A DNA stretch of 44,580 nt from a virus (lineage: Duplodnaviria; Heunggongvirae; Uroviricota; Caudoviricetes): IMG/VR virus record IMGVR_UViG_2534682161_000019; one strand, 5' to 3'. Under the pieces are notes generated by a model, which made no database searches, was not told the origin of the DNA, and was given only the letters and a program-made list of their open reading frames with translations. This document shows positions 5,360-21,195 of the stretch, in pieces (the first letter of the stretch is position 1; every line of letters begins with the position of its first letter). Made by a program: the position numbers and the translations under genes.

Positions 5360-5452
5360 TTTGTTTTAACCTCATTACAGATTTAAGGGTGAACAAATCC
5401 CTGCCATTGCTGGCATATAAAAATGAAACCGGATATTAATTACGGTGCTGTT

Positions 5453-5644
5453 TTAAAGTCCTGCCGGTATTTCGTTATTATTAGTGTGAGTAGTTTTATC
5501 TACCGGATAACAGTTACCGGGAATTTTTTGTTCTGCTGCTGCAGCCATGCATTCTTTCATTGAACCGTATAAGCCAGTCACCAGCTCAAGAGATTCGCCG
5601 GAAACAAGATAAACTGTCAGAACGAGTGCAAATGTTGTATTCAT
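5453..5644 (-). CDS. hypothetical small protein (hydrophobic N-terminus)
   Basis: 63-aa ORF in the leftward early operon, stop overlapping the next gene start (ATGA). Confidence 0.4.
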   Translation of the reverse strand: MNTTFALVLTVYLVSGESLELVTGLYGSMKECMAAAAEQKIPGNCYPVDKTTHTNNNEIPAGL

Positions 5645-5829
5645 TGTTTATATCCTTTTTGCAGCAGGTCCAGACGAGCCAGCATTGAAGGAATGCATAC
5701 TTCATTTAACAGGTCCTGCTCGAGTTTTCTCTGCTTAATGGCGTCTTCAATAAATGTTTTGTCTCCAGTGATAACGCCAATTTCGAAACGAAGTTCAGAC
5801 GTGATGGCATTACATGATAACTTTTCCAT
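5641..5829 (-). CDS. hypothetical small early protein (RacC-like position)
   Basis: ORF track gives 5641-5934; the internal ATG at 5829 (MEKLSCNAITSELRFEIG...) is preceded by a GAGGA RBS whereas the 5934 start has none, so the shorter start is preferred. Confidence 0.4.
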   Translation of the reverse strand: MEKLSCNAITSELRFEIGVITGDKTFIEDAIKQRKLEQDLLNEVCIPSMLARLDLLQKGYKQ

Positions 5830-6406
5830 TATCGCGTCCTCAACAATGAATTTTGTGATGCGGTGCCTGGTGCCTCCAGGTGACGTTAACCAGTTAACAA
5901 TTAACGCCGGATACAGAGAATCCACCCATAACACTGTTTTTGGTTTTAACTGTTCCGCGTGCGCTGAGCCGCATTCACCGCATCACAAAATTCACTTTTA
6001 AAAAAGGGCGGCAGAGCAGTCACGGAGTAAAACTGATACCGCCAAATGTCACCAGAATATTGATAACAGAGGGCGTTGTAGCGGGGTTGTCACTTAAGCG
6101 TATGGTCAACCTGACAACCCGGTGTCCTCAACGGGGAAAGGCGTCCCTCCCACCCCCGCCATACTTACCGCCGCGCCATTTCGCGGGTCGCCACAACCGG
6201 AAGCGCACGGTCGAATTAAATTTAACGACACCGTGCAGTGAGACGAACTTCGCCGTGCGCTTTCGTGTTGTGTGCCTGCTTTTAACCACGTCAGGCGAGG
6301 TGGTTTCCGTCATTCCCCAACGACAGGAAATCTGTATAATCTGGGTATCCCCAACGATCCAAGGAAATCATATGACAGAGCAAAGAGCACAAGCAGGTGA
6401 TGGTGT

Positions 6407-6613
6407 ATGGACCGGGATGATATTCTTGACAGAATTTTTTATGGCTATTTTCTTGAGCAACTGTTTTCTGTAGCGACTGGTCGTCTCGATAAACTTCTCT
6501 CAGTAGTGAGTATTATCCTCGGTTCATCTGTCATTGGCGGATTCATTCCGGAAATTTCTGGCGTTTTTATTGTTGTGATCGCAACCGTCCAAACGATTTA
6601 TGGATTCGGATAA
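6407..6613 (+). CDS. hypothetical small membrane protein (rightward ORF inside the leftward early region)
   Basis: 68 aa with a long hydrophobic stretch LLSVVSIILGSSVIGGFIPEISGVFIVVIATV; opposite orientation to flanking genes, as sieB is in Rac. Confidence 0.3.
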   Translation: MDRDDILDRIFYGYFLEQLFSVATGRLDKLLSVVSIILGSSVIGGFIPEISGVFIVVIATVQTIYGFG

Positions 6614-6628
6614 AAGTCAGGTAATACC

Positions 6629-6853
6629 ATGAGAAAATCCGCAGAATATTTGCAGCTTTTTGATGATGCAGAAAAATATTCTGATTCGGAATTGAAAATT
6701 CAGTTAAAAACTCTGGAAAAAACAGATAATCATATTTGGTCATCACTTAAAGATATTGCGATCTTAAAAACACAGATCAAAATAGGCGTCTCCATCGAAC
6801 AACAAGAGAAGTTGCCCACAAAATCCAAATTGATGCGATTTCTTTGTGGTTAG
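6629..6853 (+). CDS. hypothetical protein, same frame as 6407-6613 and separated from it by one stop codon
   Basis: 74-aa ORF; ATG 15 nt after the preceding TAA. Confidence 0.3.
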   Translation: MRKSAEYLQLFDDAEKYSDSELKIQLKTLEKTDNHIWSSLKDIAILKTQIKIGVSIEQQEKLPTKSKLMRFLCG

Positions 6854-6942
6854 GAATATCCAGATTGTTAAAGAGCATGCCGGAGGTTTATCCGTGTCCG
6901 GCGCACGCACTTCATCTGCGGAGAACTACTTGAGCTCATTGG

Positions 6943-7158
6943 TCAGTAGTTTTCAATCACTCGCGAAACGTTTAATGCCGCGCTTTTTGCCAGAGTGGTA
7001 ATATCCTGCTCCGCTGACACCAGTTCTTTAGAGAGGCGCTCTTTGTAGTCAGCGGCCTGCTTCAGGTCATTAATGGCGCGTATCTTTCCGCACATCCATT
7101 CGTAAATTTCATCCTCGGTATAGTCTGGTGCGATGATGACGGGTTCTCGTTTCTGCAT
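6943..7158 (-). CDS. hypothetical early protein
   Basis: 71-aa ORF in the leftward operon. Confidence 0.4.
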   Translation of the reverse strand: MQKREPVIIAPDYTEDEIYEWMCGKIRAINDLKQAADYKERLSKELVSAEQDITTLAKSAALNVSRVIENY

Positions 7159-7187
7159 ACTGATTCCTCGAGGTGCCGCTTCGCTTA

Positions 7188-7316
7188 TCAGTCGTTAGAT
7201 TTTGCCGAACTGGAAAGCGCCTGTTTAAACTCACTGAAGCTGAGAGCTTCTTCGCCTTCGGCAAGGCCTTCGAAGTATTCTTCGTAAGCCTTTTCCATGA
7301 TTGCGTCGAAATCCAT
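7188..7316 (-). CDS. hypothetical small acidic protein (42 aa)
   Basis: Not in the ORF track (under 60 aa); ATG at 7316 preceded by AGGTGAG RBS; MDFDAIMEKAYEEYFEGLAEGEEALSFSEFKQALSSSAKSND; fits tightly between flanking leftward genes. Confidence 0.35.
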   Translation of the reverse strand: MDFDAIMEKAYEEYFEGLAEGEEALSFSEFKQALSSSAKSND

Positions 7317-7317
7317 A

Positions 7318-7554
7318 TCACTCACCTGAATTTCTTTCCAGCCAGCGACGCGCGCCAGCTTCGGTTTTAAACGTTTTGCTTCTGGTATACGTCATCGCGG
7401 TGAACGTGCCGTCCTGGTTGGGAAACACGCCGTACACCAGAGATTCGTTGTTGCCAAGATCGATAGTATCCATGCTGACCTCATTTCCCCTTAACGCCGG
7501 GGTAGCGGAACAAAAACCTGCTGCATAGTTATTAAAGTTGAACCCTGCCGTCAT
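7318..7554 (-). CDS. hypothetical protein, first gene of the leftward early operon
   Basis: 78-aa ORF; an alternative start at 7473 (MDTIDLG...) has a GAGG RBS; not Arg-rich, so not an N-like antiterminator. Confidence 0.4.
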   Translation of the reverse strand: MTAGFNFNNYAAGFCSATPALRGNEVSMDTIDLGNNESLVYGVFPNQDGTFTAMTYTRSKTFKTEAGARRWLERNSGE

Positions 7555-7649
7555 GTTCTTACGCCTCGGGCTGGCTACTTAACCCCTGACCACTGCCGGG
7601 TAACTCTAGGTATTGCCCTGCGTTCTGTGGGGCGGGGTGGGTTGGCATG

Positions 7650-7700
7650 TATATAATGTACTTTATGTTCAGTGTTGTAAAGTACTTTGAGTACATTTTA
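7650..7700. promoter_or_regulatory. leftward early promoter/operator region (OL-like) with ATGTACT operator motifs
   Basis: ATGTACT at 7656-7662 (+) and 7690-7696 (-); 13-mer ATGTACTCAAAGT on the minus strand (7684-7696) is identical to one at 8240-8252. Confidence 0.45.
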
Positions 7701-7771
7701 TGTGTAAAAAAATGAGATGGGAAAAAGTGAAGCACAAACCCGGAGGGGGACGCTACCGGATTTATGCTGGT

Positions 7772-8191
7772 TTAAGAGGCTTTTTGTTTTTTCTTTCGTG
7801 CTAACTCTTCGTAAATTGCATTGTACTTTTGTTTTTTCTCCTCAAGAGTTTTTAAAAGTTCATCTGTCTCACTGTCAGGGAGCTCGTCCAGAAGATCAAT
7901 GATGATTTTTTGTCTTGGATTTAACTCCTGATAGAAACGTACCTGTCCACTTTCTTCTGTATCCTCTCCCAAAAGATAGGTTGGTGTTGTTCCAATGAGT
8001 GTTGCTAATTCCCTTAATTTCTCTCGGCGAGGAATTGTTTCGCCATTAAACCATTTGCTAACCGCTTTTGGTGTTAATTTCATTCGACGGGCAATTTCTG
8101 CCTGCCTTCCATGTTGTTCATAACCAGCGTTTTCACAGGCTAGCGCAAGCCTACTGGCGAACTCTTTACGCGCTTTATCTTCATGAACCAT
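7772..8191 (-). CDS. prophage repressor, HTH XRE family (RacR/DicA-like, no S24 peptidase domain)
   Basis: 139 aa; N-terminal HTH (...QAEIARRMKLTPKAVSKWFNGETIP...); acidic C-terminus; divergent from a Cro-like gene. Confidence 0.7.
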   Translation of the reverse strand: MVHEDKARKEFASRLALACENAGYEQHGRQAEIARRMKLTPKAVSKWFNGETIPRREKLRELATLIGTTPTYLLGEDTEESGQVRFYQELNPRQKIIIDLLDELPDSETDELLKTLEEKKQKYNAIYEELARKKKQKAS

Positions 8192-8199
8192 AAGTTCAA

Positions 8200-8260
8200 T
8201 GATATTCGCTCTTGAATGTACTGTCAGTTCTGTTATAGCATGTACTCAAAGTTCACATTG
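8200..8260. promoter_or_regulatory. divergent promoter/operator region between repressor and cro-like gene (OR-like)
   Basis: ATGTACT motifs at 8216-8222 and 8240-8246; shares 13-mer ATGTACTCAAAGT with the OL-like region. Confidence 0.5.
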
Positions 8261-8270
8261 TGAGGGTGAT

Positions 8271-8525
8271 ATGAACCAGAAAACACTTGAAGATGTAATC
8301 AAAACTGTTCGCGTTTCTGTTGTGGCCGACGTTTGTGGTGTCAGCCAAAGAGCAATCTACAAATGGATGGATAACGGAAAATTGCCTCGCACTGAATATA
8401 CCGGCGAAACAAATTATGCTGAAAAAATCGCTCATGCATCAAACGGATTATTTTCTGCCGATGCAATTTTAACTATTGGCAGAAATAAAACTACTACGAA
8501 AAAGCTGTTGGGAGTTGATTCATGA
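8271..8525 (+). CDS. Cro-like / YdaS-family small HTH regulator
   Basis: 84 aa from the ATG at 8271 (RBS GAGGGTGA); HTH-like VADVCGVSQRAIYKWMDNGKLP; divergent from the repressor. Confidence 0.6.
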   Translation: MNQKTLEDVIKTVRVSVVADVCGVSQRAIYKWMDNGKLPRTEYTGETNYAEKIAHASNGLFSADAILTIGRNKTTTKKLLGVDS

Positions 8526-8947
8526 AAATCAAGCATGAGCACATCCGCATGGCGATGAATGCCTGGTCGCATCCGGACGGCGAAAAAGTTCCGGCAGCTG
8601 AAATAACCCGGGCTTATTTTGAACTGGGTATGACGTTTCCGGAACTGTACGACGATTCACACCCAGAAGCCCTGGCTCGCAATACTCAGAAGATTTTCCG
8701 CTGGGTGGAGAAAGACACCCCTGATGCGGTTAAAAAAATTCAGGCGTTGTTACCAGCGATCGAAAAAGCAATGCCACCTCTGCTGGTGGCCCGAATGCGC
8801 AGCCACAGTTCAACCTGGTTTCGGGAGCTGGTGGAGACGCGGGAACGACTGGTGAGAGACGCTGATGATTTTGTCGCAGTGGCGATCGCTGGTTTCAATC
8901 AGATGAATCGTGGTGGTCCGGCGGGAAATGCCGTGGTGATGCACTAA
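8522..8947 (+). CDS. YdaT-like / CII-like early regulatory protein
   Basis: 141 aa directly after the cro-like gene (start overlaps its stop); same position and size as ydaT of Rac; assignment from recollection. Confidence 0.45.
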   Translation: MKIKHEHIRMAMNAWSHPDGEKVPAAEITRAYFELGMTFPELYDDSHPEALARNTQKIFRWVEKDTPDAVKKIQALLPAIEKAMPPLLVARMRSHSSTWFRELVETRERLVRDADDFVAVAIAGFNQMNRGGPAGNAVVMH

Positions 8948-8970
8948 AAGCACGGTGTTCGGAGTTTTTT

Positions 8971-9918
8971 ATGAGCAGCAAGCTTCATGGTCTTGTCTGG
9001 GAAGGGTGTGCCTTCACCGGCATGATCTTATCCAGGGTGGCAGTAATGGCTCGCCTTGCAGATTACAGCAATGACGAAGGTGTGTCATGGCCTGCAGTGG
9101 AGACCATTCGTCGTCAGATTGGGGCAAAGAGTGAATCAACGGTTAAAGCGGCGATAGCGGAACTGGAAAAGAACGGCTGGCTGACGAAGGAGGAACGTAA
9201 GGTCGGTGGGCGTAATGAAAGCAATATCTACCGTCTTAATGTGGAAAAACTCGAAGCAGCAGCAGCGGCGGCGCGTGAGGCATATAAACCGAAAAGAAAA
9301 ATTAACCCGGTAAAAAATGACCCGTCAAATATTGACCCCTCAACGGTTGACCCCTCAAATTTTGATGGATCAACCGTTGATAAAAAACATTCGGTTAGGG
9401 GGACGATGGTTGGCCCCGATCCGTCAGTATTAAAACCTGATCCGCCAGATAAAAGATCTTCTTGTCCGGACGCTTCGCAACCGGACCCGCAGATGGCTGA
9501 ACAGGATTTTTTAACCCGACACCCTGACGCGGTTGTGTTCAGTGCGAAAAAACGCCAGTGGGGCAGCCAGGAAGATTTAGCGTGTGCGCAGTGGATCTGG
9601 GGGCGAATCGTGAGTCTTTACGAGCAGGCTGCCAGCGATGATGGCGAAATCATGCGACCGAAAGAACCAAACTGGACTGCATGGGCCAATGATGTGCGCA
9701 CAATGCGGATGCTGGATGGCAGAACTCACAGACAAATTTGCGAAATGTTTGGTCGGGTACAGCGGGATCCATTCTGGGTAAAAAACATCATGAGTCCGGC
9801 AAAACTCCGGGAAAAATGGGATGAGCTGGTTATTCGTCTGGGGCGTTCGCCTGTACAGCGTTGCGTGAATCACATTTCTGAACCGGATACCGAAATTCCG
9901 CCGGGGTTCAGGGGGTAA
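8971..9918 (+). CDS. replication initiator protein (O-like; N-terminal winged HTH)
   Basis: 315 aa; N-terminal HTH (...VSWPAVETIRRQIGAKSESTVKAAIAELEKNGWL...); internal DPSNIDPSTVDPSNFDGSTVD tract encoded by iteron-like DNA repeats. Confidence 0.6.
   Translation: MSSKLHGLVWEGCAFTGMILSRVAVMARLADYSNDEGVSWPAVETIRRQIGAKSESTVKAAIAELEKNGWLTKEERKVGGRNESNIYRLNVEKLEAAAAAAREAYKPKRKINPVKNDPSNIDPSTVDPSNFDGSTVDKKHSVRGTMVGPDPSVLKPDPPDKRSSCPDASQPDPQMAEQDFLTRHPDAVVFSAKKRQWGSQEDLACAQWIWGRIVSLYEQAASDDGEIMRPKEPNWTAWANDVRTMRMLDGRTHRQICEMFGRVQRDPFWVKNIMSPAKLREKWDELVIRLGRSPVQRCVNHISEPDTEIPPGFRG
9313..9381. repeat. iteron-like direct/inverted repeats inside the replication gene (putative origin)
   Basis: Repeated TGACCC(C)TCAA units (aaaaatgacccgtcaaat / attgacccctcaacgg / ttgacccctcaaat / tttgatggatcaaccgttga) followed by an A-run. 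Confidence 0.45.
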
Positions 9919-9960
9919 GTGTTGATTTGAGGTCATGAAGTTATTTTCTCAGGAGAGTTT

Positions 9961-10362
9961 ATGGGGGCTATTTATACCGAAGAACAGCGGGAAAGATTAC
10001 AGCGTCACATCGTTGACCTTGTACGTAAAAACGGGCGTATGAAAATGCCACAACTGGCATCGGCAACATATGCTTCACATGATTCCATTCGCCGGTACCT
10101 GAAGATGCTGGTGAGCCAGGGCGAAGTGTATGTTGTCAGCGGAAAAGGGGTATTCCTTTCAGAGAGAGTTTACCGTGAATGGCTGGCAAGTTCGGCAAAA
10201 AAATCAAGGGTTATCCGCAAACCAGCACAAAAACAGGGTAAGGCCGGAGTACAACCCTACGACCGGCACCAGAACGTAATTTGCCGGGAATGTCGTAACA
10301 GCGAATCAATGCAGCGGGTACTGGCTTTTTACCGGGGTGGATTTCAGGAGCTCGTATCGTGA
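9961..10362 (+). CDS. hypothetical protein
   Basis: 133-aa ORF; ATG preceded by AGGAGAG. Confidence 0.45.
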   Translation: MGAIYTEEQRERLQRHIVDLVRKNGRMKMPQLASATYASHDSIRRYLKMLVSQGEVYVVSGKGVFLSERVYREWLASSAKKSRVIRKPAQKQGKAGVQPYDRHQNVICRECRNSESMQRVLAFYRGGFQELVS

Positions 10363-10667
10363 AAAAGTGGGTGCGTGCCGAGATACTGATTCTACGGCAG
10401 TGTGCGGGAACAATGACGGTGGAATGTATCGGGATGCTTATTGGTCGTAGTGAGGCTGCGGTCAGAACGAAAGCGCGGGAACTGGGTATTAGTATGATGT
10501 TACGGGGTGATTATCACCAGTCAGCAAAATATCCGCAGAGTGATATTGAGCTGGCGCGACAGCTGCATCAGCTTGGCGTGTCCAGGAGAGAAATCGCCAG
10601 AAAATTTGGAATGCCGCTGCGCACAGTGAATAACTACGTTTATTTCGACAGGAGGGTGTCTGCGTGA
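10359..10667 (+). CDS. hypothetical HTH-containing protein
   Basis: 102 aa with two HTH-like stretches (GRSEAAVRTKARELGIS and GVSRREIARKFGMPLRTV); start overlaps previous stop. Confidence 0.45.
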   Translation: MKKWVRAEILILRQCAGTMTVECIGMLIGRSEAAVRTKARELGISMMLRGDYHQSAKYPQSDIELARQLHQLGVSRREIARKFGMPLRTVNNYVYFDRRVSA

Positions 10668-10897
10668 AAATCCTGTATCAGGATTACGGCCCGGTGGGAC
10701 AGGTGGTTATCAGCAGTACTGTAATGGAGTTCCGGAAGCATAACCGTGTGGTGGATGCAGTACTGTTAGCCTGTCCGGGGATATCGGCGAGCCGTGCAGG
10801 TGTGTTTTTTATGAAGACGAAGTTATATGGCAGTACAGCGTGGATAAAGAAGGCGTACCGGGTAGCGTTACAGGAGGTAAACAGTGAGCGAAATTAA
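10664..10897 (+). CDS. hypothetical protein
   Basis: 77-aa ORF translationally coupled to its neighbours. Confidence 0.35.
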   Translation: MKILYQDYGPVGQVVISSTVMEFRKHNRVVDAVLLACPGISASRAGVFFMKTKLYGSTAWIKKAYRVALQEVNSERN

Positions 10898-11345
10898 CTG
10901 TCAGGCACTGCGAGAGGCGGCAGAGAAAGCAACTAAAGGAAGCTACATCGTAGGGCATACGTCTGTTAACCAGCATGGCAATTTAACAGGAGTTTTTGTT
11001 TGTCAAAAATGGAAAGGAGAACCCGGTGGCGTGATTGCAGAATGTCATGTTAACTGCCTGGTTGAAACAGATGCTCAGGCTTACGCAAACGCTGAATTTA
11101 TTGCTGCCTTTAATCCAAAGGTTGCGCTGGCGATACTGGATAAGCTGGAAGCTAAAGACAAGCGCATTGCAGAACTGGAGGCGAGGGAAATCCAGTTACC
11201 TGCTGGCTTCGACCTTCGATATGGACACCCGATAAATGCTGATGAGCGACATGTGATGATACCTAAAGAAAATGGCAACTGGATTCATCGGACTGACTTA
11301 GAGCACTCACTACGTGTTGCAGGGATTCGTATTAAAGGAGACTAA
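10884..11345 (+). CDS. Ead/Ea22-like protein
   Basis: 153 aa; resembles the Ead/Ea22-like family common in E. coli prophages (recollection only); coiled-coil-like middle. Confidence 0.4.
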   Translation: MSEINCQALREAAEKATKGSYIVGHTSVNQHGNLTGVFVCQKWKGEPGGVIAECHVNCLVETDAQAYANAEFIAAFNPKVALAILDKLEAKDKRIAELEAREIQLPAGFDLRYGHPINADERHVMIPKENGNWIHRTDLEHSLRVAGIRIKGD

Positions 11346-11346
11346 C

Positions 11347-11703
11347 GTGGAAATAAAACCAGAAGATGAGTTAAGTAATATTGTTTTATTTCCGGTAAAA
11401 GAGGATGACCCACGTAATCAGGTTAATTTTCTTTATGAGCCATCGGAAAGACCATATTGTCATCACGACTCTGTCCGGGTTGACGAAAAAGAGCGTCAGG
11501 TCCGCTGTAAAATCTGCGGTGCAGTTGTGGAGCCATTTGACTGGATGCTCTCTGTGGCGAAAAGAGAAACCAGACTGGCAGATGATGTAAGGATCTTGCG
11601 CCAGGAGGAACGGGAAAGGCGGAGAAATATAGAAAAGCTAATTCAGATTGAGCGTAACGTGAAAGCGCGGATACGCAGGGCGACAAAATCCAGAACAGAA
11701 TAA
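11347..11703 (+). CDS. hypothetical zinc-ribbon protein
   Basis: GTG start 7 nt after a perfect AAGGAG RBS (track gives an upstream overlapping ATG at 11314); CHHD...CKICG Cys/His cluster; Arg-rich C-terminus. Confidence 0.45.
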   Translation: MEIKPEDELSNIVLFPVKEDDPRNQVNFLYEPSERPYCHHDSVRVDEKERQVRCKICGAVVEPFDWMLSVAKRETRLADDVRILRQEERERRRNIEKLIQIERNVKARIRRATKSRTE

Positions 11704-11751
11704 TTAAATTTAGCACTGTTAAAAATTTAATCCTTAACCGGAGGTATATCA

Positions 11752-11946
11752 ATGTCAAACGCACAGAAAGTTATTAACGCTGAAAAATATAACGAGTGGG
11801 TGAAAAAGTTCTCAGAGCAGATTTTTAAAATTACTGGCGACGAGAATGCGGCAAAAAATGAATTAGAGCCGTGGACACCTGAAGGTGTCGCCCCAAATTA
11901 TTGCTGGTGGATGTTGATCCAGTTGATGCTGCAAATGAAGCGATGA
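11752..11946 (+). CDS. hypothetical protein
   Basis: 64-aa ORF; GGAGG RBS upstream. Confidence 0.4.
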   Translation: MSNAQKVINAEKYNEWVKKFSEQIFKITGDENAAKNELEPWTPEGVAPNYCWWMLIQLMLQMKR

Positions 11947-11998
11947 GTTATCACAACGATTAATGTCAGGAGGCCGCCCGAAAGGGCGGTAATGAAAA

Positions 11999-12689
11999 GT
12001 GACTGAATTAACCAAAGAGCAATTAATCGAAGAAGCCAAATTAAAAATAGCGATTGCGAAATGCCACCCCAATTCAGGGATGGCACGGGTAGAGGGCGAG
12101 TTATTCAAAATTGCACTGGCATCGCTGGTAGCAGAACCGCTGGTGCCCGTCATGTATAAAGGAATGAAACTGTTAACAAAAGAGGGGCTTGAGCTTATTC
12201 GTGACGGTATTGCGGAGGCTACGGGACTGGAAGCAATGTGTATGGCTGATGCTTTGCTGTCTGGGGGGGGGGGCAGTGCCGTCAGTGCCGAAAGAAATGT
12301 ATTGGCAGGATGCACCAGTTGAAAGTAGCAGCAAAGCAGCTGCATACGCTACAGGCTGGAAAGCCTGCCGCGAAGCCATGCTTCAGTCCGGAAACTTTCG
12401 GGATAATAAGAATTCGTCAACCAACAATTTTCGGGAAATCCCGGAAACGTCAACCAGCTCTCAGGGAACTCCGGCTGGCTGGATAAGCTGTAGTGATGCA
12501 GTTCCTGCTGAATATTGCGATGTGATTCTGCGCGATGATCTCGGGAATGTATTCCCCGGTTCATGGGATAAGGTTTTTTGCCCCACTCGTGGCGGGAATA
12601 AGATGGCTTTTGTGGACAAAGACGGCGTCGAAGTAGAGAGCTCAACCCACTGGATGCCGCTACCAGAATCGCCGAAGGTGGTGAAGTGA
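11999..12689 (+). CDS. DUF551-like protein interrupted by a frameshift at a G11 homopolymer (possible pseudogene, phase-variable gene or sequencing artefact)
   Basis: ORF 11999-12322 and ORF 12189-12689 are in different frames and join across GGGGGGGGGGG at 12263-12273; removing one G gives a continuous ~229-aa protein ending ...WMPLPESPKVVK. Confidence 0.45.
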
Positions 12690-12762
12690 TGGAAAATGAA
12701 TTCGAAAATGCTATCGCCACGGTGCAGCCAAAATCAATAGTTGAGTAGACTTACTCTGAGGC

Positions 12763-12791
12763 TTGACTACGAGGTTACCATTAGGTGTAAT
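12763..12791 (+). promoter_or_regulatory. sigma70-like promoter upstream of the AT-rich island
   Basis: TTGACT (12763-12768), 17-nt spacer, TGTAAT (12786-12791). Confidence 0.4.
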
Positions 12792-12863
12792 TTAGAGTAA
12801 GTTGGTAGCCTCAGTTGTCGAAGAGGCATAATGGTGATTGTTAGTTGATGCAATAATTAAGGA

Positions 12864-13355
12864 ATGTTAATGCCTACTAATGCTGAACAACCAGTATCAA
12901 TTAGTAAACCGAAGACCGTTACACTTCGTGCTTTTGAAATAAAAAACACTGCACTTTCGAAAAGTTCTAGCGAAGCTAAGGCCGATTTGATAGCAAGGCT
13001 TAGTCAAGTAAAACAGGCAAAAGATAGATGCATGTTGTTAAATCCAGAAGATCCTAAGCAGGAAAGAGATGTTCTTTCGTATTTTAAAGAATCTCCTGTT
13101 ACTGATTCAGTATTTTGCACTATGTTAAGGATTACATCTGACAAAGAAATCCAACACATAACAGATTCTCTTTTTGAGAAAGAGGTCTTTTCTCTGGATG
13201 ATATAGAAACATCTCATTTAGATGTGTCAGCAATATGTAAAGGCCATTACTATTTTTGCATGAGTGATGATTTTTTAGTTACAAATCTCCCATTAAATAA
13301 AACGATTGTGCGTTTACAAACGTATCTGAGTTGGTTTACAAATAATGAGCTTTAA
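12864..13355 (+). CDS. hypothetical protein, first gene of the AT-rich island
   Basis: 163-aa ORF; AAGGA RBS favours the second ATG at 12870; no recognised motif; AT-rich codon usage unlike the surrounding prophage. Confidence 0.5.
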   Translation: MLMPTNAEQPVSISKPKTVTLRAFEIKNTALSKSSSEAKADLIARLSQVKQAKDRCMLLNPEDPKQERDVLSYFKESPVTDSVFCTMLRITSDKEIQHITDSLFEKEVFSLDDIETSHLDVSAICKGHYYFCMSDDFLVTNLPLNKTIVRLQTYLSWFTNNEL

Positions 13356-13370
13356 GAATTCACCCCACTA

Positions 13371-13883
13371 GTGTCAGCAAAAGGGAAAACGAAACTTAGT
13401 GATTTAAAAGCCATAATCGTTAAAGATCCAGAACCGTTAGTACCGACTGCTATGTGTGATGAGTCTGGTGTTAGAAGTAAAAAGGGAGAAATTACGGTTA
13501 GCGAAGGTCATAAATCTATCAAGTTAACACAAAAAGTTCTGGATATTATCAGGAGTTCGATGTCAGACTCTGAACAACTTAATGATATGATGCTGAGTCA
13601 AATGATTTCTGCTGAATTGTTAATAAAATTTAAAAAGCCACGCAGAATGACAGATGATGAATATAGTAGAGCTTTAGGGGCTTATTTGAAACCCGTTAGC
13701 GATCTTGATAATGTATCATTTAAGCGAAAAGATAACAAAACAGAAGTGAAAGGCAAGGATTTGCTGTTAACAAAGTCTGTAAGTATTGAAACGACACAGT
13801 CAGGTAAATTAGTTGAGCATCATTTGCTACAAGAGATGAGCAAGTTTTTGCTAGAGTTAAGCAATGAAAAAAATAGCGGTTAG
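13371..13883 (+). CDS. hypothetical protein, second gene of the AT-rich island (same frame as the first, separated by one TAA)
   Basis: 170-aa ORF with a GTG start and no clear RBS; in-frame continuation of 12864-13355 across the stop at 13353-13355. Confidence 0.45.
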   Translation: MSAKGKTKLSDLKAIIVKDPEPLVPTAMCDESGVRSKKGEITVSEGHKSIKLTQKVLDIIRSSMSDSEQLNDMMLSQMISAELLIKFKKPRRMTDDEYSRALGAYLKPVSDLDNVSFKRKDNKTEVKGKDLLLTKSVSIETTQSGKLVEHHLLQEMSKFLLELSNEKNSG

Positions 13884-14325
13884 CGTATTATCAATATTGC
13901 TGCTCACATTGTTGGCTAGTTCAGTCTGGGATGTTCGTCCGGACGGTTTTTTTGCGTCGACAGTTTTTACAATTTCTGGAATAATGTTCTCAATTGGATT
14001 AGGGCTAATTGTGAATTTTAGCACATCCGGTGTAAGGAACCGTGGATACATTCTGCGTATTAGACGTAATGTAATGAGGGTGAGGAATTCATTTCTATTA
14101 TATTTTGGTTTGTCGACTTTTTCTTACATAGCAAATCAATATCTTACTGCTTTTGAGTTTTCTTTAACCTTTGGTGATGGTATCAAAACATGTTTTAGCG
14201 CATCCATATTCTTTTGCTTGCTTATAATTTATTCCTCTATATATTTTGTTGTTAATTTTATAGAGTTGCAAAAACTCAATAATGATATTTTTGATAAAGT
14301 CAATGCGGAAATAACTAACAAATGA
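13864..14325 (+). CDS. hypothetical integral membrane protein (about 4 TM helices), third gene of the AT-rich island
   Basis: 153 aa; hydrophobic segments SVLSILLLTLLASSVW, VFTISGIMFSIGLGLIVNF, FLLYFGLSTFSYIANQYL, FSASIFFCLLIIYSSIYFVVNFI; overlaps the upstream ORF by 20 nt. Confidence 0.55.
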   Translation: MKKIAVSVLSILLLTLLASSVWDVRPDGFFASTVFTISGIMFSIGLGLIVNFSTSGVRNRGYILRIRRNVMRVRNSFLLYFGLSTFSYIANQYLTAFEFSLTFGDGIKTCFSASIFFCLLIIYSSIYFVVNFIELQKLNNDIFDKVNAEITNK

Positions 14326-14523
14326 AATGGCTTTTGTGTGCATGTTAAATAAAGAATACATGGCATCATTTAATGATGTCATGTGTAACGAGCGAAAAGC
14401 CTTTTGAACGGTTTTCATAAGTTATATTGAAAGATAAAATTGCTGCGGGTGCTTGAGGCTATCTGCCTCAGGCATGAACACCAACGGCAGATAGATAAAA
14501 GCCCCACCCGACTATAAATCGAA

Positions 14524-14742
14524 GTGAGGCCCCTATATGCTCGTCACATACAGATTGCCTCTTACGGACCGAAAGGTCAAGGAGAAGCAGGCTATGAAGC
14601 AGCAAAAGGCGATGCTAATCGCCCTGATCGTCATCTGTTTAACCGTCATAGTGACGGCACTGGTAACGAGGAAAGACCTCTGCGAGGTACGAATCCGAAC
14701 CGGCCAGACGGAGGTCGCTGTCTTCACAGCTTACGAACCTGA
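14524..14742 (+). CDS. mok: mok-like overlapping reading frame of the hok toxin locus
   Basis: 72-aa ORF starting upstream of hok and overlapping it in another frame, ending 7 nt before the hok stop. Confidence 0.5.
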   Translation: MRPLYARHIQIASYGPKGQGEAGYEAAKGDANRPDRHLFNRHSDGTGNEERPLRGTNPNRPDGGRCLHSLRT

Positions 14743-14749
14743 GGAGTAA
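14594..14749 (+). CDS. hok: Hok/Gef-family type I toxin (HokD/RelF-like)
   Basis: 51-aa product MKQQKAMLIALIVICLTVIVTALVTRKDLCEVRIRTGQTEVAVFTAYEPEE: single TM helix plus conserved C-terminus; matches HokD as I recall it. Confidence 0.85.
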   Translation: MKQQKAMLIALIVICLTVIVTALVTRKDLCEVRIRTGQTEVAVFTAYEPEE

Positions 14750-14915
14750 GAGACCTGGCGGGGAGAATTCCCTCGCCACCTCTGATGTGTCAGGCTTCCT
14801 CAACGCACCCGCACTTAACCCGCTTCGGTGGGTTTTGTTTTTTCTGTGCATTCTGGTTTACAATTCGCACGCCAGCCTGAACAACTGGCACCTGCTGCGC
14901 CAGCAGAGACAACCG

Positions 14916-15194
14916 ATGGCGCACGATACCAAATTACACAATTCTGATGATTCTGCCGTCTTTGCCAGCAGGCACGGGCTGCGTTCTCACGCATTCAAAT
15001 ATGACTGGTATCAGCACGATCCCTGTACTGAAGAACAGGCCGAATGGCTGATTCATAACTACCGCAGACGTGGGTATGAGTTTAAGAAAGCCCTCAGTCT
15101 CGATTATCGTCACTGGATAATCTACGTCAGGCTCCCTTATTCCGAACGCCCGCCGCGTCCATCCCGCACATTCCAGCAACGGATCTGGAGGTAA
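14916..15194 (+). CDS. hypothetical protein (DUF1364-like/Rem-like position between hok and DUF968 gene)
   Basis: Track gives 14787-15194 with a GTG start and hydrophobic N-terminus; the internal ATG at 14916 yields a 92-aa product; start uncertain. Confidence 0.35.
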   Translation: MAHDTKLHNSDDSAVFASRHGLRSHAFKYDWYQHDPCTEEQAEWLIHNYRRRGYEFKKALSLDYRHWIIYVRLPYSERPPRPSRTFQQRIWR

Positions 15195-15195
15195 C

Positions 15196-16245
15196 GTGCG
15201 GGTATTACTTCGACCTGTTCCGGTGCCGGAACTCGGGCTGGTGGTCCTTAAGCCGGGCCGTGAATCTATGCAGGTATTTCATAATCCCCGGGTACTGGTG
15301 GAGCCGGAACCGAAAAGCATGCGCGGTCTGCCGTCCGGAGCTGTTCCTGCCGTTCGCCAGGCGCTGGCGGAAGATAAATCATTACTGCCATTTTTCAGCG
15401 ATGAGCGGGTGATTCGTGCTGCTGGCGGCGCTGGTGCACTGTCTGACTGGCTGTTGCGTCATGTCAAATCCTGCCAGTGGCCTCATGGTGACTATCATCA
15501 CAGTGAAACCGTCATACATCGTTACGGTACCGGCGCGATGGTGTTGTGCTGGCACTGCGACAACCAGTTGCGTGACCAGACCTCCGAATCACTCGGGCAA
15601 CTTGCTCATCAAAACCTGTCGGCATGGATGATTGACGTCATACGCCACGCAATGAATGGCACACAAGAGCGGGAATTATCGCTGGCTGAATTGTACTGCT
15701 GGGCTGCTGTAAATGATGTAGTGGATGCCATGACCGAAAATATGGCGCGTCGAATCCTGAAGCGTCCGGGTGAAAAAATCCGCTCAATATACCGCGAGAG
15801 CGACATCATACCGGGAGAACCGACAGCCACCAGCATACTGAAGCAGCGCACAAAAAATATTGCGCTACCACCTTACGCCCACCAGCAACAGAACCCACCA
15901 CAGGAAAAGACGGTGGTCAGCATCGCCGTTGATCCGGAGTCTCCTGAATCTTTCATGAAGCGACCTAAACGTCGCCGTTGGGTAAATGAGAAATATACGC
16001 GCTGGGTGAAGACTCAGCCGTGTGCGTGTTGTGGTCAACCAGCCGACGATCCCCATCACCTGATTGGTCATGGTCAGGGCGGAATGGGAACAAAGGCCCA
16101 CGATATTTTTACACTACCGCTGTGCCGGGAGCATCACAACGAACTTCATGCGGATCTGCTGGCGTTCGAAGAAAACCATGGTTCCCAGATTGATTTAATT
16201 TTTCGTTTTCTTGATCACGCCTTTGCAACCGGCGTGCTTGGGTAA
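15196..16245 (+). CDS. DUF968-like protein (YdfU-like) with C-terminal HNH-like Cys/His motif
   Basis: 349 aa; GTG start 5 nt after GGAGG; C-terminal ...CACCGQPADDPHHLIGHG...CREHHNELH. Confidence 0.55.
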   Translation: MRVLLRPVPVPELGLVVLKPGRESMQVFHNPRVLVEPEPKSMRGLPSGAVPAVRQALAEDKSLLPFFSDERVIRAAGGAGALSDWLLRHVKSCQWPHGDYHHSETVIHRYGTGAMVLCWHCDNQLRDQTSESLGQLAHQNLSAWMIDVIRHAMNGTQERELSLAELYCWAAVNDVVDAMTENMARRILKRPGEKIRSIYRESDIIPGEPTATSILKQRTKNIALPPYAHQQQNPPQEKTVVSIAVDPESPESFMKRPKRRRWVNEKYTRWVKTQPCACCGQPADDPHHLIGHGQGGMGTKAHDIFTLPLCREHHNELHADLLAFEENHGSQIDLIFRFLDHAFATGVLG

Positions 16246-16257
16246 AAGAGGTTACTG

Positions 16258-16629
16258 ATGCGTATAGAGTTTGTTTTGCCTTACCCGCCGACGGTGAACA
16301 CCTACTGGCGACGTCATGGCAGCACATATTTTGTATCAAAAGCCGGTGAGCGTTATCGCCGTGATGTGGCGTTCATTGTTCGCCAGCAGCGGTTGAAATT
16401 AAACCTCTCCGGAAGGCTGGCGATAAAGATTATTGCAGAGCCACCGGATAAGCGCCGTCGTGACCTGGACAATATCCTGAAAGCACTGCTGGATGCGCTG
16501 ACACATGCGGGGCTGCTTATAGACGACGACCAGTTTGATGAAATCAATATTGTGCATGGTCTGCCTGTTTGCGGTGGGCGACTGGGTGTGAATATATTCG
16601 TAATAAGAGGATGTAATGATGTTGCGTGA
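16258..16629 (+). CDS. rusA: RusA-family Holliday junction resolvase
   Basis: 123 aa; [12 protein letters not shown]...[27 protein letters not shown] matches RusA (PPS.N.YYR...RRRDLDN...DAL..AG...DD). Confidence 0.8.
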
Positions 16630-16990
16630 TATTCAGCTGGTTATGGAGCGGTGGGGAGCATGGGCAGCAAGTAATCATGAAGATGTAACATGGTCCTCGA
16701 TAGCTGCTGGTTTTAAAGGATTAATCCCGACTAAAGTGAAATCACGTCCTCAGTGTTCTGATGATGACGCCATGATAATTTGTGGCTGTATGGCACGATT
16801 AAACAAGAATAATCAGTATTTGCACGATTTGTTGGTGGATTATTACGTAGGTGGAATGACATTTATGGCTCTTGCACGTAAGCATAGATGTTCTGATGGG
16901 CTTATTGGTAAAAGACTTTATAAAGCTGAAGGTATTATTGAAGGAATGCTTATGGCTCTGAATGTCCGGTTAGATATGGATATGCGGTAG
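16616..16990 (+). CDS. Q: late-gene antiterminator Q (phage 82/21-type, Quu-like)
   Basis: 124 aa; [18 protein letters not shown]...[14 protein letters not shown]...LLVDYYV... resembles E. coli prophage Quu antiterminators; immediately upstream of the late region. Confidence 0.7.
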
Positions 16991-17137
16991 GGATATATAG
17001 TGACGAGGGTTATGTTTTCCGTGTTTATAATTAATATGTTTATTTTTTGATGGTCATGAATTTTATGGAAGGTAAACAAAATGTTGCCAGGTGAATTGAA
17101 AATATTGATAATCAATCATCATCATTAAATAAAAGGA

Positions 17138-17961
17138 GTGTTTATGTGGATTGTGTTAGCACTGTCACTGTCAACTCTCAGTTGGCATAAGGTAGTGGCT
17201 TTTTCATTGTTGACGGTGTCTGTTGTCCTGGCTGTGCTTAATGATATTATTGATTGGCCGGTGTTGTTTTTTGTTGCTACAATCGTTTTTTTTATTATTT
17301 TGAAGTTCAACTGGAAATATAACGCCTGGGCTAAATCCATATATGAAGCTGGCATAGTTTTATCAGCCATAGCATTATCTTTCCATTTATGGCCAGGGTT
17401 TCACAATCCTGTAGTGCTAAAGTCTGTCACTGTCGGACCTCAAAGCACTCCCTATACAATGTATTTTAATTTTGATAAAGCGCTGGTGCCATTTTTGTTA
17501 GTCCTGTGTACAGCTTCTTTGTTTAAAAAAGAAGTGAAATCAGAAGTGTCTTTGTGGAAATGGGGGGCTCTGTTGCTCTCTGTTCCTCTTATACTGTTTT
17601 TGGCTGTTTTTTTGGTGGGTTAAAGCCAGAGATTCATTTTCCAGAGTGGTTGCCAGAGTTTATATTGGCTAATTTGTTTTTTGTGTCTCTGGCAGAGGAG
17701 TCATTATTTAGAGGGTATATTCAATCACGGCTATCAGAAGTGACGTCTCCATTGGTTGCGTTAATTGTGGCGTCTTTGTTGTTTGGTTTTTATCACTATT
17801 CAGGTGGTGCTTTACTTGTATTATTTGCCACGTTATCTGGTGTTGTGTATGGATTGTCATGGATGTGGAGTGGGTGCTTGTGGGTGGCAACCCTTTTCCA
17901 TTTTGGTCTGAATCTGTGTCACTTGTTATTCTTTACCTATCCATTCTTAAAACATAATTGA
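17138..17961 (+). CDS. CPBP-family intramembrane metalloprotease (CAAX protease/Abi domain), disrupted by a frameshift in a T7 run
   Basis: ORFs 17138-17623 and 17554-17961 overlap in different frames; second part carries CPBP motifs EESLFRGY, FGFYHY, HFGLN; adding one T to the T7 run at 17607-17613 restores a single ~275-aa multi-TM protein; AT-rich. Confidence 0.65.
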
Positions 17962-18102
17962 TTTTTTTCTATGGCTTTAAATTTATAACACTGAAAAATA
18001 GCAGTATGTGACATTTGCATGAAAAATATGCACGGCAAAGCATTTACGTACGTAAAAAATCATGTATGCTTTTAAGAGTGGTTATTTCACCGCATAGCCT
18101 GA

Positions 18103-18126
18103 ACCCGCCTCTGAGCGGGTTTTTTG
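18103..18126 (+). terminator. rho-independent terminator after the CPBP gene
   Basis: ACCCGC-CTCTGA-GCGGGT hairpin followed by TTTTTTG. Confidence 0.55.
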
Positions 18127-18248
18127 TGCCCGCAAAGTAGCGCAGTGCGTTAAATGTGCTGGTAGTTATTAATACTGGTCTTTCTGCTTGCTGGCTTTTT
18201 AGACAAGAGTTATTGGTATGTCACGTTAACCAGAAAAGGGAAAAAGAC

Positions 18249-18446
18249 ATGCTAAAACAGCAGGATATGACCGAAACCGCCAGAGTGGTGTTTAATGAAT
18301 TAAGCGTCACCGAACCGGCGACCGTCGGGGAGATTGCGCAGAATACTTACCTTTCACGCGAGCGCTGCCAGTTAATACTGACTCAGCTTGTTATGGCGGG
18401 TCTGGCAGATTATCAGTTCGGTTGTTACAGACGCCTTCCGCAGTGA
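18249..18446 (+). CDS. hypothetical small winged-helix-like protein upstream of the methyltransferase
   Basis: 65 aa from the ATG at 18249 (AAGGGA RBS); ...VGEIAQNTYLSRERCQLILTQLVMAGL... resembles a DNA-binding wHTH. Confidence 0.45.
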   Translation: MLKQQDMTETARVVFNELSVTEPATVGEIAQNTYLSRERCQLILTQLVMAGLADYQFGCYRRLPQ

Positions 18447-18596
18447 AGGCTTTTTAATTTGTGGTAATGGGCGGCTGGTGGGTGTTAGCGGCACCTGCCA
18501 GCCATCTGCTCATGCGTTGGGGTCACAAGCAAACCTCAGGCCCATCTGCTTTGCGCAAAAGCGGTATGAGCCTATCAGAGAAGTGCTTATTGATCT

Positions 18597-19146
18597 ATGG
18601 CTAATACTGTAAAAATATCCAGCTGCGAGTTAATCAACGCTGATTTCCTGGAATTTATCCAGACCTTACCGGAAAACTCTGTCGATCTGATAGTCACAGA
18701 CCCGCCATACTTTAAAGTGAAGCCCGAGGGCTGGGATAACCAGTGGAAGGGCGACGATGATTACCTGAAATGGCTGGATCAGTGTCTGGCGCAGTTCTGG
18801 TGGGTATTAAAACCCGCCGGAAGTCTTTACCTGTTCTGTGGTCATCGCCTGGCATCTGATATCGAAATCATGATGCGTGAGCGCTTTAATGTGCTGAACC
18901 ACATTATCTGGGCGAAGCCGTCCGGGCGCTGGAACGGGTGCAACAAGGAAAGCCTGCGGGCGTATTTCCCGGCAACAGAGCGCATTCTGTTTGCGTCCGG
19001 GAGATTTGGTTGCCGACTTTTTCATGGGGTCAGGCTCCATAATAAAAGCAGCGCTGGCACTTGGGGGCATGGCGTTAAGCGTTGAACTTGAGTCTGAACG
19101 TTTTGAGCATACTGCGGGTGAAATAGTTACGTTGGCAGATAATTAA
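18597..19146 (+). CDS. DNA methyltransferase (N6-adenine/N4-cytosine type, DPPY motif), apparently frameshifted or internally deleted
   Basis: N-terminal frame contains TDPPYF; the SAM-binding motif (PGDLVADFFMGSGS...ALALGG...) is in a different frame ending at 19146; the combined length is short for this family. Confidence 0.55.
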
Positions 19147-19260
19147 ATCACTGCACAATAAGCTAATGAATTGATGTTAACTTCCCGTATTATTGGGCTA
19201 CTTCGAGAGAAAGGTGCATTACATTTCAGATGTATTTCATCTCACATCCGAGGAAGCAAT

Positions 19261-19336
<76 letters not shown>

Positions 19337-19339
19337 TAT

Positions 19340-19414
<75 letters not shown>

Positions 19415-19546
19415 ACATTTGATAGAGGCGTATTGCAGCACTGGCGTATTTTTATTACGTGAGGACAGATTGTTTTTTTAGGAACTCTCAGTTTTCGGGC
19501 TATGTTTTGAGGCCAGGTTAGCCTCAGTGCTGATTTTTTACAATAC

Positions 19547-19615
19547 CGGAATGGTGCATTATTGGTTGGGTTACGTAGTGAGCCCTATGGCAGGTACCGG
19601 TGATGCACCATTCCG
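19547..19615. other. long imperfect hairpin (13-bp stem, ~43-nt loop) downstream of the tRNAs
   Basis: CGGAATGGTGCAT (19547-19559) pairs with ATGCACCATTCCG (19603-19615). Confidence 0.4.
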
Positions 19616-19694
19616 ATGTTGTAAACATCACTTAGAGTAAGTTATAGAACAATTTGCTACTAAGTAAAACCTGAAACCTGGGAATACATCTTTA

Positions 19695-19718
19695 CCGCCA
19701 CACTTGGCGGTTTTTTTT
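19695..19718 (+). terminator. rho-independent terminator (possible tR-prime-like late terminator)
   Basis: CCGCCA-CACT-TGGCGG hairpin followed by TTTTTTTT. Confidence 0.6.
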
Positions 19719-19816
19719 ATTCTGTTTTTTCATGGCTCGCTACGGCGGCCTTTTTCATGTATACCCTGGCGGTTATTATGATGGCTTGTTTATTTGTTCA
19801 TAAGAGGATTGATACA

Positions 19817-20299: not shown

Positions 20300-20509
20300 A
20301 AGGCAGGAGTCGTAAAAAGGAATCGTTCGAAAATCTCAGAATCACCAGGCTGCGCATTTGCGTGGCCTTTTTTGTATCCGCGCCACGCCCGGCGCATATC
20401 AAAAACCACAGAGCCTTTCAGGGGTGAGCTTACGGGATGGTCAGTGTGACTTTCTCTGTGGGCTGGTCACCCCCGGGCGCAGGCTCACCCACTAAAAGGA
20501 AAAGTCACG

Positions 20510-21084: not shown

Positions 21085-21195
21085 CACCACGCAAAAGGCA
21101 TCTGCGGGTGCCTTTGATTGGGTGTTGTTTTTACGGGCCGCTGGTGGCCTTTTTTGTTTCCATTATACAACGCCCGCATCTGCGAGGTGGGGGTT

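What the first reader, a model, noticed from the sequence alone, without database searches (positions are those of the whole stretch)
12263..12273. G11 homopolymer interrupting a DUF551-like gene: possible slipped-strand switch
Seen: an 11-G run sits exactly at the junction where ORF 11999-12322 and ORF 12189-12689 change frame; deleting one G yields a continuous ~229-aa protein ending in the WMPLPESP-type C-terminus typical of DUF551 prophage proteins (recollection). Established: long poly-G tracts are hypermutable by slipped-strand mispairing and are also a classic sequencing-error site. Inference: phase-variable ON/OFF expression, a pseudogene, or artefact.
Basis: partly seen in the sequence, partly recalled or inferred. 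Interest (0 to 1): 0.5.

Follow-up and report, generated by a model that had tools for sequence, protein, structure and literature searches.

The report
Length-variable poly-G tract splitting a prophage gene
An 11-G run really does break a prophage gene of unknown function (DUF551 family) in this E. coli window, and the same run is 7 to 13 Gs long in otherwise identical prophages from other isolates, so it is a genuine slippage-prone hot spot, here at a gene-breaking length, with no evidence that it is a purposeful switch.

Summary
G11 lies at 12263-12273, where ORF 11999-12322 (107 aa) gives way to the +1 frame that runs to 12689. Removing one G gives a 229-aa protein with a C-terminal DUF551 domain (Pfam E=8e-17).

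Public assemblies carry the same gene with G7, G8 (seen as a protein only), G9, G10, G11, G12 and G13. G11, G12 and G13 copies have flanks of about 6 kb with no substitution, or one, relative to the window. The exact G11 product occurs on 13-24 contigs from separate samples, so a one-off assembly error is unlikely. More distant relatives read GGGGCGT at this site; two substitutions give G7. The tract encodes a Gly run in a low-confidence linker at a junction between mosaic gene modules.

Out-of-frame lengths outnumber in-frame ones (about 54 contigs against 10, not independent samples). Both neighbouring genes are also disrupted in the window.

Best reading: a replication-slippage hot spot in a dispensable delayed-early accessory gene under relaxed selection. 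The window carries a truncating allele that slippage could reverse. Adaptive phase variation is not excluded, but nothing here tests it. Recoding is unlikely. This is a new member of a known kind and of modest interest.

The parts
12263..12273 (+). G11 homopolymer. It encodes the Gly run of the linker ...ALLS-G(n)-AVPSVP... and is out of frame at this length.
   Evidence: Other assemblies carry G7, G9, G10, G12 and G13 at the same site, checked on DNA. G8 is inferred from protein P0122.
11999..12322 (+). Truncated upstream reading frame: 107 aa, made of N-terminal module residues 1-88, then GGGG and a 15-residue out-of-frame tail (19 residues after Ser88), then a stop.
   Evidence: The identical 107-aa protein, P0121, is on 13-24 public contigs.
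12276..12689 (+). Rest of the gene in the DUF551 frame. Possible restart codons are GTG 12276, GTG 12285 and ATG 12297. The mechanical ORF starts at 12189.
   Evidence: Annotators called 137-, 134- and 130-aa products from these starts (P0137, P0136, P0133). Whether any of them is translated is unknown.
12477..12677 (+). DUF551 (PF04448) domain, residues 160-226 of the repaired protein.
   Evidence: E=8e-17. In the AlphaFold model it is a beta-strand domain with pLDDT about 70. W217, L220, P221 and P224 are invariant in a 51-sequence alignment.
12274..12290 (+). Imperfect 9-nt tandem repeat CAGTGCCG / TCAGTGCCG (encodes VP-SVP) directly after the tract.
   Evidence: The relative L043 has a single copy.
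11752..11946 (+). Upstream neighbour, 64 aa. It is frameshifted relative to a 70-aa version by a 1-nt deletion in GGTGGG at about 11906-11910.
   Evidence: alignment with L039. PGAP flags the same gene as frameshifted in strain OkiPb01695. The PHROG match stops at residue 54.
12864..13883 (+). Downstream neighbour. It is a single 337-aa ORF in relatives but is split in the window by a TAA codon at 13353-13355, where relatives have TTA.
   Evidence: The intact 337-aa gene is present in OkiPb01695, L021 and L039.

Best explanation
The G11 run is a real, slippage-prone homopolymer inside the flexible Gly/Ser/Pro linker of a mosaic DUF551 accessory gene. The gene lies in the rightward early region of a lambdoid prophage, between the replication genes and the hok / DUF968 / RusA / Q block. 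The tract probably arose from GGGGCGT by two substitutions, giving G7. Once that long, it gains and loses single Gs by strand slippage during DNA replication much faster than the flanks gain substitutions. Lengths of 7, 10 and 13 keep the 228-230-aa protein intact. Lengths of 8 and 11 stop after 106-107 aa. Lengths of 9 and 12 run into the third frame and give 161-162 aa. The window carries the out-of-frame G11 allele, so the N-terminal module is cut off from the DUF551 domain. Out-of-frame lengths predominate in public data and both neighbouring genes are also disrupted, so the gene is most likely dispensable in lysogens and the tract length is drifting under relaxed selection. That makes it a slippage-inactivated gene that slippage could restore, not an evolved switch. 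Shown: the tract, the frames, the allele series and the identical flanks. Inferred: replication slippage as the cause, the ancestry from GGGGCGT, neutrality, and the placement of the gene in the early operon.
For: The tract and the two frames are. The allele series is at protein level and at DNA level: G7 (L039), G9 (L020-L028), G10 (OkiPb01695 and L035), G11 (window, L011-L019, L034), G12 (L029-L032, L036, L037) and G13 (L033). One search shows no substitution, or one (L011), relative to the window across about 6 kb of flank (3.3-3.5 kb upstream and 2.7-3.4 kb downstream, in the loci long enough) among G11, G12 and G13 loci. A second haplotype carries G9 and G10. A sub-haplotype with a different upstream junction carries both G11 (L015, L017) and G12 (L031, L032). 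Contig counts are G11 13-24, G9 14-16, G12 11-13, G10 6 plus OkiPb01695, G13 2, G7 1 and G8 1. Homology to hundreds of E. coli prophage genes begins exactly after the tract, and the tract lies in a low-confidence stretch of the model with pLDDT 28-46. The neighbouring genes are broken. The general mechanism is described in PMC7241687. From my own knowledge, G/C runs of 8 or more are the classic contingency tracts of Neisseria, Haemophilus and Campylobacter.
Against: No reads were available, so switching within a clone was not observed. Contig counts are not independent samples: most of the nine G9 contigs shown come from one run series, SRR12406xxx. The neutrality argument is therefore weak. 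Ten NCBI contigs end at the tract (proteins P0123-P0126, L038). That could reflect sequencing noise at long G runs, which may inflate the apparent length diversity. Persistence of the tract in three haplotypes could also reflect selection for mutability.
Confidence: 0.62

Rival explanations
1. The tract is an adaptive contingency locus. Reversible slippage switches the DUF551 gene ON (G7, G10, G13) and OFF, or between alternative products. This would give the phage or lysogen population bet-hedging in a DUF551-dependent trait.
For: The tract is above the usual length threshold. It is polymorphic on identical backgrounds and changes the reading frame. It sits in a linker where in-frame length changes should be harmless. 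It persists in three haplotypes. The third frame stays open for 72 codons in G9 and G12 alleles. DUF551 proteins have reported host phenotypes: yfdS mutants are H2O2-sensitive, and an Ea22 variant carries the domain (PMC4776307, PMC10834534).
Against: There is no phenotype and no within-clone switching data. In-frame alleles are the minority, about 10 of 64 contigs. The neighbouring genes are also disrupted. By position the gene belongs to the rightward early region, which is normally repressed in a lysogen (my inference, not tested here). The tract is confined to one rare lineage: 1 of 5426 complete E. coli genomes.
Confidence: 0.2
2. The window's G11 is a sequencing or assembly error, and the true genome has an in-frame G10.
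For: Long homopolymers are classic error sites. The closest complete genome has G10. The window and OkiPb01695 also differ at several other short homopolymers. Some assemblies break at the tract.
Against: The exact 107-aa G11 product occurs on 13-24 contigs from separate samples, in both NCBI assemblies and Logan assemblies of read runs. Their flanks are identical to the window. A systematic error would not give 9, 10, 11, 12 and 13 on the same background.
Confidence: 0.1
3. The frameshift is corrected during expression, by ribosomal +1 slippage of tRNA-Gly on the G run or by RNA polymerase slippage. In that case G11 would still yield full-length protein.
For: A run of GGG codons permits re-pairing of tRNA-Gly, and 11 identical bases exceed the length of the RNA:DNA hybrid (my own knowledge).
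Against: The frameshift configuration is not conserved: in-frame alleles exist and the length varies. No stimulatory element was looked for. A transcriptome-wide study in E. coli found that all slippage insertions in homopolymers were in A or T runs and concluded that G and C runs are not prone to slippage (PMC5574713).
Confidence: 0.05

Closest known systems
Homopolymer contingency loci (slipped-strand mispairing phase variation), for example the gonococcal pgtA poly-G (PMC2193922), Bordetella pertussis homopolymeric tracts (PMC1891110), Mycobacterium tuberculosis glpK (bioRxiv 10.1101/717272) and the poly-G frameshift in Salmonella Gallinarum mod (PMC3152355)
   Same: A G/C run of 7 or more inside an ORF. 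Repeat number is polymorphic among near-identical sequences. Changes of plus or minus one base toggle the reading frame.
   Different: The host is E. coli, which has working mismatch repair and where homopolymers this long are very rare. One study gives 9 nt as the longest run in MG1655 coding sequence (PMC5574713). The gene is a phage early accessory gene of unknown function, not a surface or modification gene. Neither reversibility within a clone nor any phenotype has been shown.
DUF551 (PF04448) prophage proteins: YfdS of CPS-53 and the Ea22 V2 variant of Stx phages
   Same: The C-terminal DUF551 domain with the conserved W-MPLPE-P end. The mosaic N-terminal and middle modules. The location among early accessory genes of lambdoid prophages (PMC10834534, PMC4776307).
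   Different: This lineage has a particular N-terminal module, and it alone has the poly-G linker. The biochemical function of the family is unknown. The fold search gave no significant match.
Slippage-generated pseudogenes at homopolymers, for example the poly(A) tracts of Buchnera discussed in PMC5574713
   Same: A homopolymer indel inactivates a gene that is under weak selection.
   Different: The tract here is G rather than A or T, so rescue by transcriptional slippage is unlikely. Intact alleles still circulate in the population.

Membership tests
SSR / homopolymer contingency locus (slipped-strand phase variation) | A simple repeat above the hypermutable length, located in an ORF or a promoter | tested here: met
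   G11 lies inside the coding sequence and is the only G/C run longer than 6 nt in the window.
SSR / homopolymer contingency locus (slipped-strand phase variation) | Repeat-number polymorphism among otherwise near-identical sequences | tested here: met
   G7-G13 occur across assemblies. G11, G12 and G13 loci show no substitution, or one, relative to the window across about 6 kb of flank.
SSR / homopolymer contingency locus (slipped-strand phase variation) | Length changes switch the reading frame between full-length and truncated products | tested here: met
   The products are 228, 229 and 230 aa for G7, G10 and G13; 106 and 107 aa for G8 and G11; 161 and 162 aa for G9 and G12.
SSR / homopolymer contingency locus (slipped-strand phase variation) | High-frequency, reversible switching within a clonal population | not testable with these tools
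   This needs raw reads or a fluctuation assay. There is only an indirect hint: in haplotype B, a G9 contig of 14642 bp against a longest G10 contig of 14643 bp. The G10 contigs could not be fetched.
SSR / homopolymer contingency locus (slipped-strand phase variation) | The switch has a phenotypic, selectable consequence | not testable with these tools
   The function of DUF551 is unknown (PMC10834534, PMC4776307). There were no PADLOC hits and no PHROG family of known function.
DUF551 (PF04448) protein | A Pfam match above the gathering score | tested here: met
   62.3 bits against a cut-off of 22, E=8e-17, residues 160-226 of the repaired protein. In the window the domain lies in the downstream frame.
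DUF551 (PF04448) protein | The conserved C-terminal W-MPLPE-P motif | tested here: met
   W217, L220, P221 and P224 are invariant across 51 homologues.
Programmed frameshift or transcriptional slippage recoding site | The frameshifted arrangement is conserved among orthologues | tested here: not met
   In-frame alleles exist and the tract length varies from 7 to 13. More distant orthologues have no tract.
Programmed frameshift or transcriptional slippage recoding site | The sequence is of a kind known to make E. coli RNA polymerase or ribosomes slip efficiently | not tested
   Literature only: G and C runs were reported as not prone to transcriptional slippage in E. coli (PMC5574713).
Sequencing or assembly artefact | The variant is unique to one assembly | tested here: not met
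   The exact G11 product is on 13-24 contigs, from both NCBI assemblies and Logan read-run assemblies of different samples.

The most novel reading that the evidence does not exclude
The tract could be a true phage-borne contingency locus in E. coli that works as a three-way switch. G7, G10 and G13 would give the full N-module-linker-DUF551 protein. G8 and G11 would give the N-module alone, possibly with a DUF551 fragment initiated separately at GTG 12276 and using the G run as a Shine-Dalgarno-like element. G9 and G12 would fuse the N-module to a 72-residue basic tail from the third frame. This would diversify a lysis-lysogeny or stress-related trait across the phage and lysogen population.
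Probability: 0.1. Interest if true: 0.6.

Novelty: new member of a known kind. Interest (0 to 1): 0.3.

Why it matters
E. coli is usually described as lacking homopolymer contingency loci, and long G/C runs are almost absent from its genes. This is a documented G7-G13 length series on identical prophage backgrounds. It gives a natural, trackable slippage marker in E. coli and a ready-made ON/OFF allele set for a DUF551 protein, a widespread prophage domain with no known function. It also has a practical side. The site causes split or partial gene calls and contig breaks in many public assemblies, so annotators should treat the fragments as one gene. If the switch proved adaptive, it would be an example of phase variation encoded by a temperate coliphage.

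Tried and rejected
1. Exact-pattern scans for the tract with variable length found nothing in the GTDB representative genomes, IMG/VR viral contigs or JGI metagenome contigs.
2. The phage collection holds only the shared middle module, not this gene.
G12 was reached instead through the window-encoded 103-aa C-terminal ORF and through neighbouring genes. The haplotype-B G10 Logan contigs could not be fetched, so I could not check whether G9 and G10 occur in the same run series.
4. The AlphaFold model was poor overall (mean pLDDT 55), and Foldseek against the PDB gave nothing below E=0.1, so structure gave no clue to function.
5. PADLOC gave no hits and every PHROG hit was to a family of unknown function.
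6. I checked whether other DUF551 variants that sit upstream of the same low-GC island carry homopolymers. None did.
7. I considered and set aside a G-quadruplex (a single G11 cannot form four tracts) and the antisense ORF 11863-12345 (never called by any annotator and lying inside the coding region). Neither was tested with a tool.
8. Torres-Cruz and van der Woude 2003, on slipped-strand mispairing in E. coli, is not held in the library.

Full report
**Observation.** The window has 11 consecutive Gs at 12263-12273. ORF 11999-12322 (GTG start, 107 aa) enters the tract in frame, and the +1 frame is open from 12189 to 12689. Removing one G gives a 229-aa protein. Its residues 160-226 match Pfam DUF551 at E=8e-17. 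No other G or C run in the window exceeds 6 nt, and only 2 of 100 dinucleotide shuffles gave as many G9 matches. The description and coordinates are correct.

**Context.** Window 1336-21159 is 99.3% identical to a lambdoid prophage of E. coli OkiPb01695 (NZ_AP042570.1), which lies next to yccA. That prophage has an integrase, dicB/ydfA/ydfB, a ydaS/ydaT-type immunity region and replication genes. A string of small accessory genes follows (Ead/Ea22-like, DUF551), and then hok, DUF968, RusA and Q. The remainder of the window holds lambda-like structural genes best matched in strain N96. The gene lies on the + strand, downstream of the replication genes. I infer that it is a delayed-early gene that is repressed in the lysogen.

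**The allele series.**
- In OkiPb01695 the tract is G10 and PGAP annotates an intact 229-aa DUF551 protein.
- A search of the large protein collection and a listing of cluster members returned a whole series:

| Tract | Product | Protein id | Contigs | Where seen |
|---|---|---|---|---|
| G7 | 228 aa | P0001 | 1 | Logan |
| G8 | 106 aa | P0122 | 1 | Logan (protein only) |
| G9 | 161 aa | P0053 | 14-16 | E. coli and one Shigella dysenteriae record |
| G10 | 229 aa | P0128, P0129 | 4 and 2 | Logan; NCBI |
| G11 | 107 aa | P0121 | 13-24 | identical to the window's product; includes E. coli STEC_7v |
| G12 | 162 aa | P0139 | 13 | includes a 5.19-Mb contig |
| G13 | 230 aa | P0132 | 2 | NCBI and Logan |

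- I fetched DNA for 29 loci and read the tract directly. The lengths were G7, G9, G10, G11, G12 and G13, always followed by CAGTGCCGTCAGTGCCG.
- Ten NCBI contigs end at the tract (partial proteins of 84-88 aa; L038). This shows that assemblers struggle at the site. The cause could be mixed populations or read noise.

**Rate relative to the flanks.**
- Comparing outward from the tract, every G11, G12 and G13 locus of the window's haplotype has no substitution, or one (L011), relative to the window. The comparison covers about 6 kb of flank in the loci long enough.
- The second haplotype, that of OkiPb01695, carries G9 and G10.
- A sub-haplotype with a different upstream recombination junction carries both G11 (L015, L017) and G12 (L031, L032).
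- Tract length therefore changes much faster than point substitutions accumulate, which is the signature of slippage at a homopolymer.
- It is not wildly unstable. All nine G9 loci fetched (eight from the run series SRR12406xxx and one NCBI assembly) read G9.

**Origin and protein context.**
- More distant relatives with the same N-terminal module read TCT GGG GCG TCA GTG CCG (Ser-Gly-Ala-Ser-Val-Pro).
- Two substitutions convert GGGGCGT into G7 without changing the length, which is the allele seen in L039. Expansion would then give G8-G13. This path is my inference.
- Homology to hundreds of E. coli prophage DUF551 genes, including those of Stx phages, begins exactly after the tract. The tract therefore sits at a junction between modules.
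- In an AlphaFold model of the G7 allele, an N-terminal helical hairpin (residues 1-44, pLDDT about 80) and the DUF551 beta-strand domain (155-222, pLDDT about 70) are separated by a low-confidence region. The Gly run lies in that region.
- In-frame changes in length should therefore be harmless, which fits the coexistence of GG, GGG and GGGG versions.

**Selection.**
- Counting contigs, out-of-frame lengths (about 54) far outnumber in-frame ones (about 10). These counts are inflated by clonal sampling and are not a test.
- Both flanking genes are also damaged in the window. The 64-aa ORF at 11752-11946 has a 1-nt deletion relative to a 70-aa version. PGAP also flags this gene as frameshifted in OkiPb01695.
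- The 337-aa gene downstream is cut by TAA at 13353-13355, where other haplotypes have TTA.
- Three consecutive lesions suggest relaxed selection on this accessory block. I therefore rank neutral slippage and decay above an evolved switch.

**Rivals.**
- An artefact specific to this window is unlikely, given the recurrence of the exact G11 product in independent samples from more than one source archive.
- Recoding is unlikely. The frameshift is not conserved, and a transcriptome-wide study in E. coli found slippage insertions only in A or T runs (PMC5574713).
- Adaptive phase variation remains possible. The mechanical criteria are met, and DUF551 proteins have been linked to host phenotypes (yfdS and H2O2 sensitivity, Ea22 variants; PMC4776307, PMC10834534).
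- However, there is no phenotype, no within-clone switching data and no enrichment of ON alleles.

**Comparison with known systems and novelty.** Mechanistically this matches homopolymer contingency loci as defined in PMC7241687. Examples are pgtA (PMC2193922), Bordetella tracts (PMC1891110) and the Salmonella mod poly-G frameshift (PMC3152355). Three of the five defining features were tested and met. Reversibility within a clone and a phenotype could not be tested. The protein is a DUF551 family member by Pfam and by motif. I know of no report of this tract; the literature searches found none. It is a new member of a known kind. It is notable mainly because G runs this long are almost absent from E. 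coli genes: PMC5574713 gives 9 nt as the longest run in MG1655 coding sequence. Interest is modest.

Noticed in passing
window 11752-11946 (deletion at about 11906-11910): The 64-aa ORF just upstream is frameshifted relative to a 70-aa version in L039: GGTGGG has become GGTGG. PGAP flags the same gene as frameshifted in OkiPb01695, and the PHROG match ends at residue 54.
   Followed up: partly
window 12864-13883 (TAA at 13353-13355): The downstream gene is a single 337-aa ORF in OkiPb01695, L021 and L039. In the window's haplotype a TTA-to-TAA nonsense change splits it into a 161-163-aa piece (depending on the start chosen) and a 170-aa piece.
   Followed up: partly
window about 12750-14500: A low-GC island (GC 0.29-0.38, against about 0.5 around it) carries the 337-aa ORF and a 153-aa predicted membrane protein (13864-14325). 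Neither has PADLOC hits, and the two halves of the 337-aa ORF have no PHROG hits (the 153-aa protein was not scanned against PHROGs). The pair recurs downstream of different DUF551 variants in several lambdoid prophage contexts. It may be an uncharacterised moron or defence cassette.
   Followed up: partly
window 11974-11989: A 6-bp GC stem with a GAAA tetraloop (CCGCCC-GAAA-GGGCGG) lies in the 52-nt spacer between the upstream ORF and the GTG start of the DUF551 gene. No T run follows it, so it does not look like an intrinsic terminator.
   Followed up: no
window 17607, 17962, 19473, 20470, 21126; also 14622: The window and OkiPb01695 differ at other short homopolymers: T7/T8, T7/T6, T7/T6, and C5/C7 about 40 nt upstream of a TerB-family gene. 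An 11-nt direct-repeat indel lies in the hok region, where OkiPb01695's Hok is flagged as frameshifted.
   Followed up: no
L038 and proteins P0123-P0126 (NCBI assemblies): Ten draft-assembly contigs end within a few bases of the poly-G tract and give partial 84-88-aa proteins. P0127 shows a scrambled G-rich continuation. The site breaks assemblies.
   Followed up: partly
window 12274-12486, third frame: The frame entered by G9 and G12 alleles stays open for about 72 codons and encodes a basic tail (QCRQCRKKCIGRMHQLKV...). This may be chance, and its conservation was not tested.
   Followed up: no
window 1-1500: The left end of the window matches an Ail/Lom outer-membrane protein gene and hypothetical-protein genes, with a tRNA-Ser annotated under the match in two of three records, at 100% identity in three complete genomes. 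The same stretch also has a partial, roughly 90-92% match to a region annotated as Lom plus tail protein J in other strains. The prophage therefore seems to abut the end of another prophage.
   Followed up: no
L035 (AP025751.1), downstream of the DUF551 gene: In this complete genome, which carries G10, an IS3-family element (HTH_Tnp_1 plus rve ORFs) is inserted between the DUF551 gene and the low-GC island.
   Followed up: no
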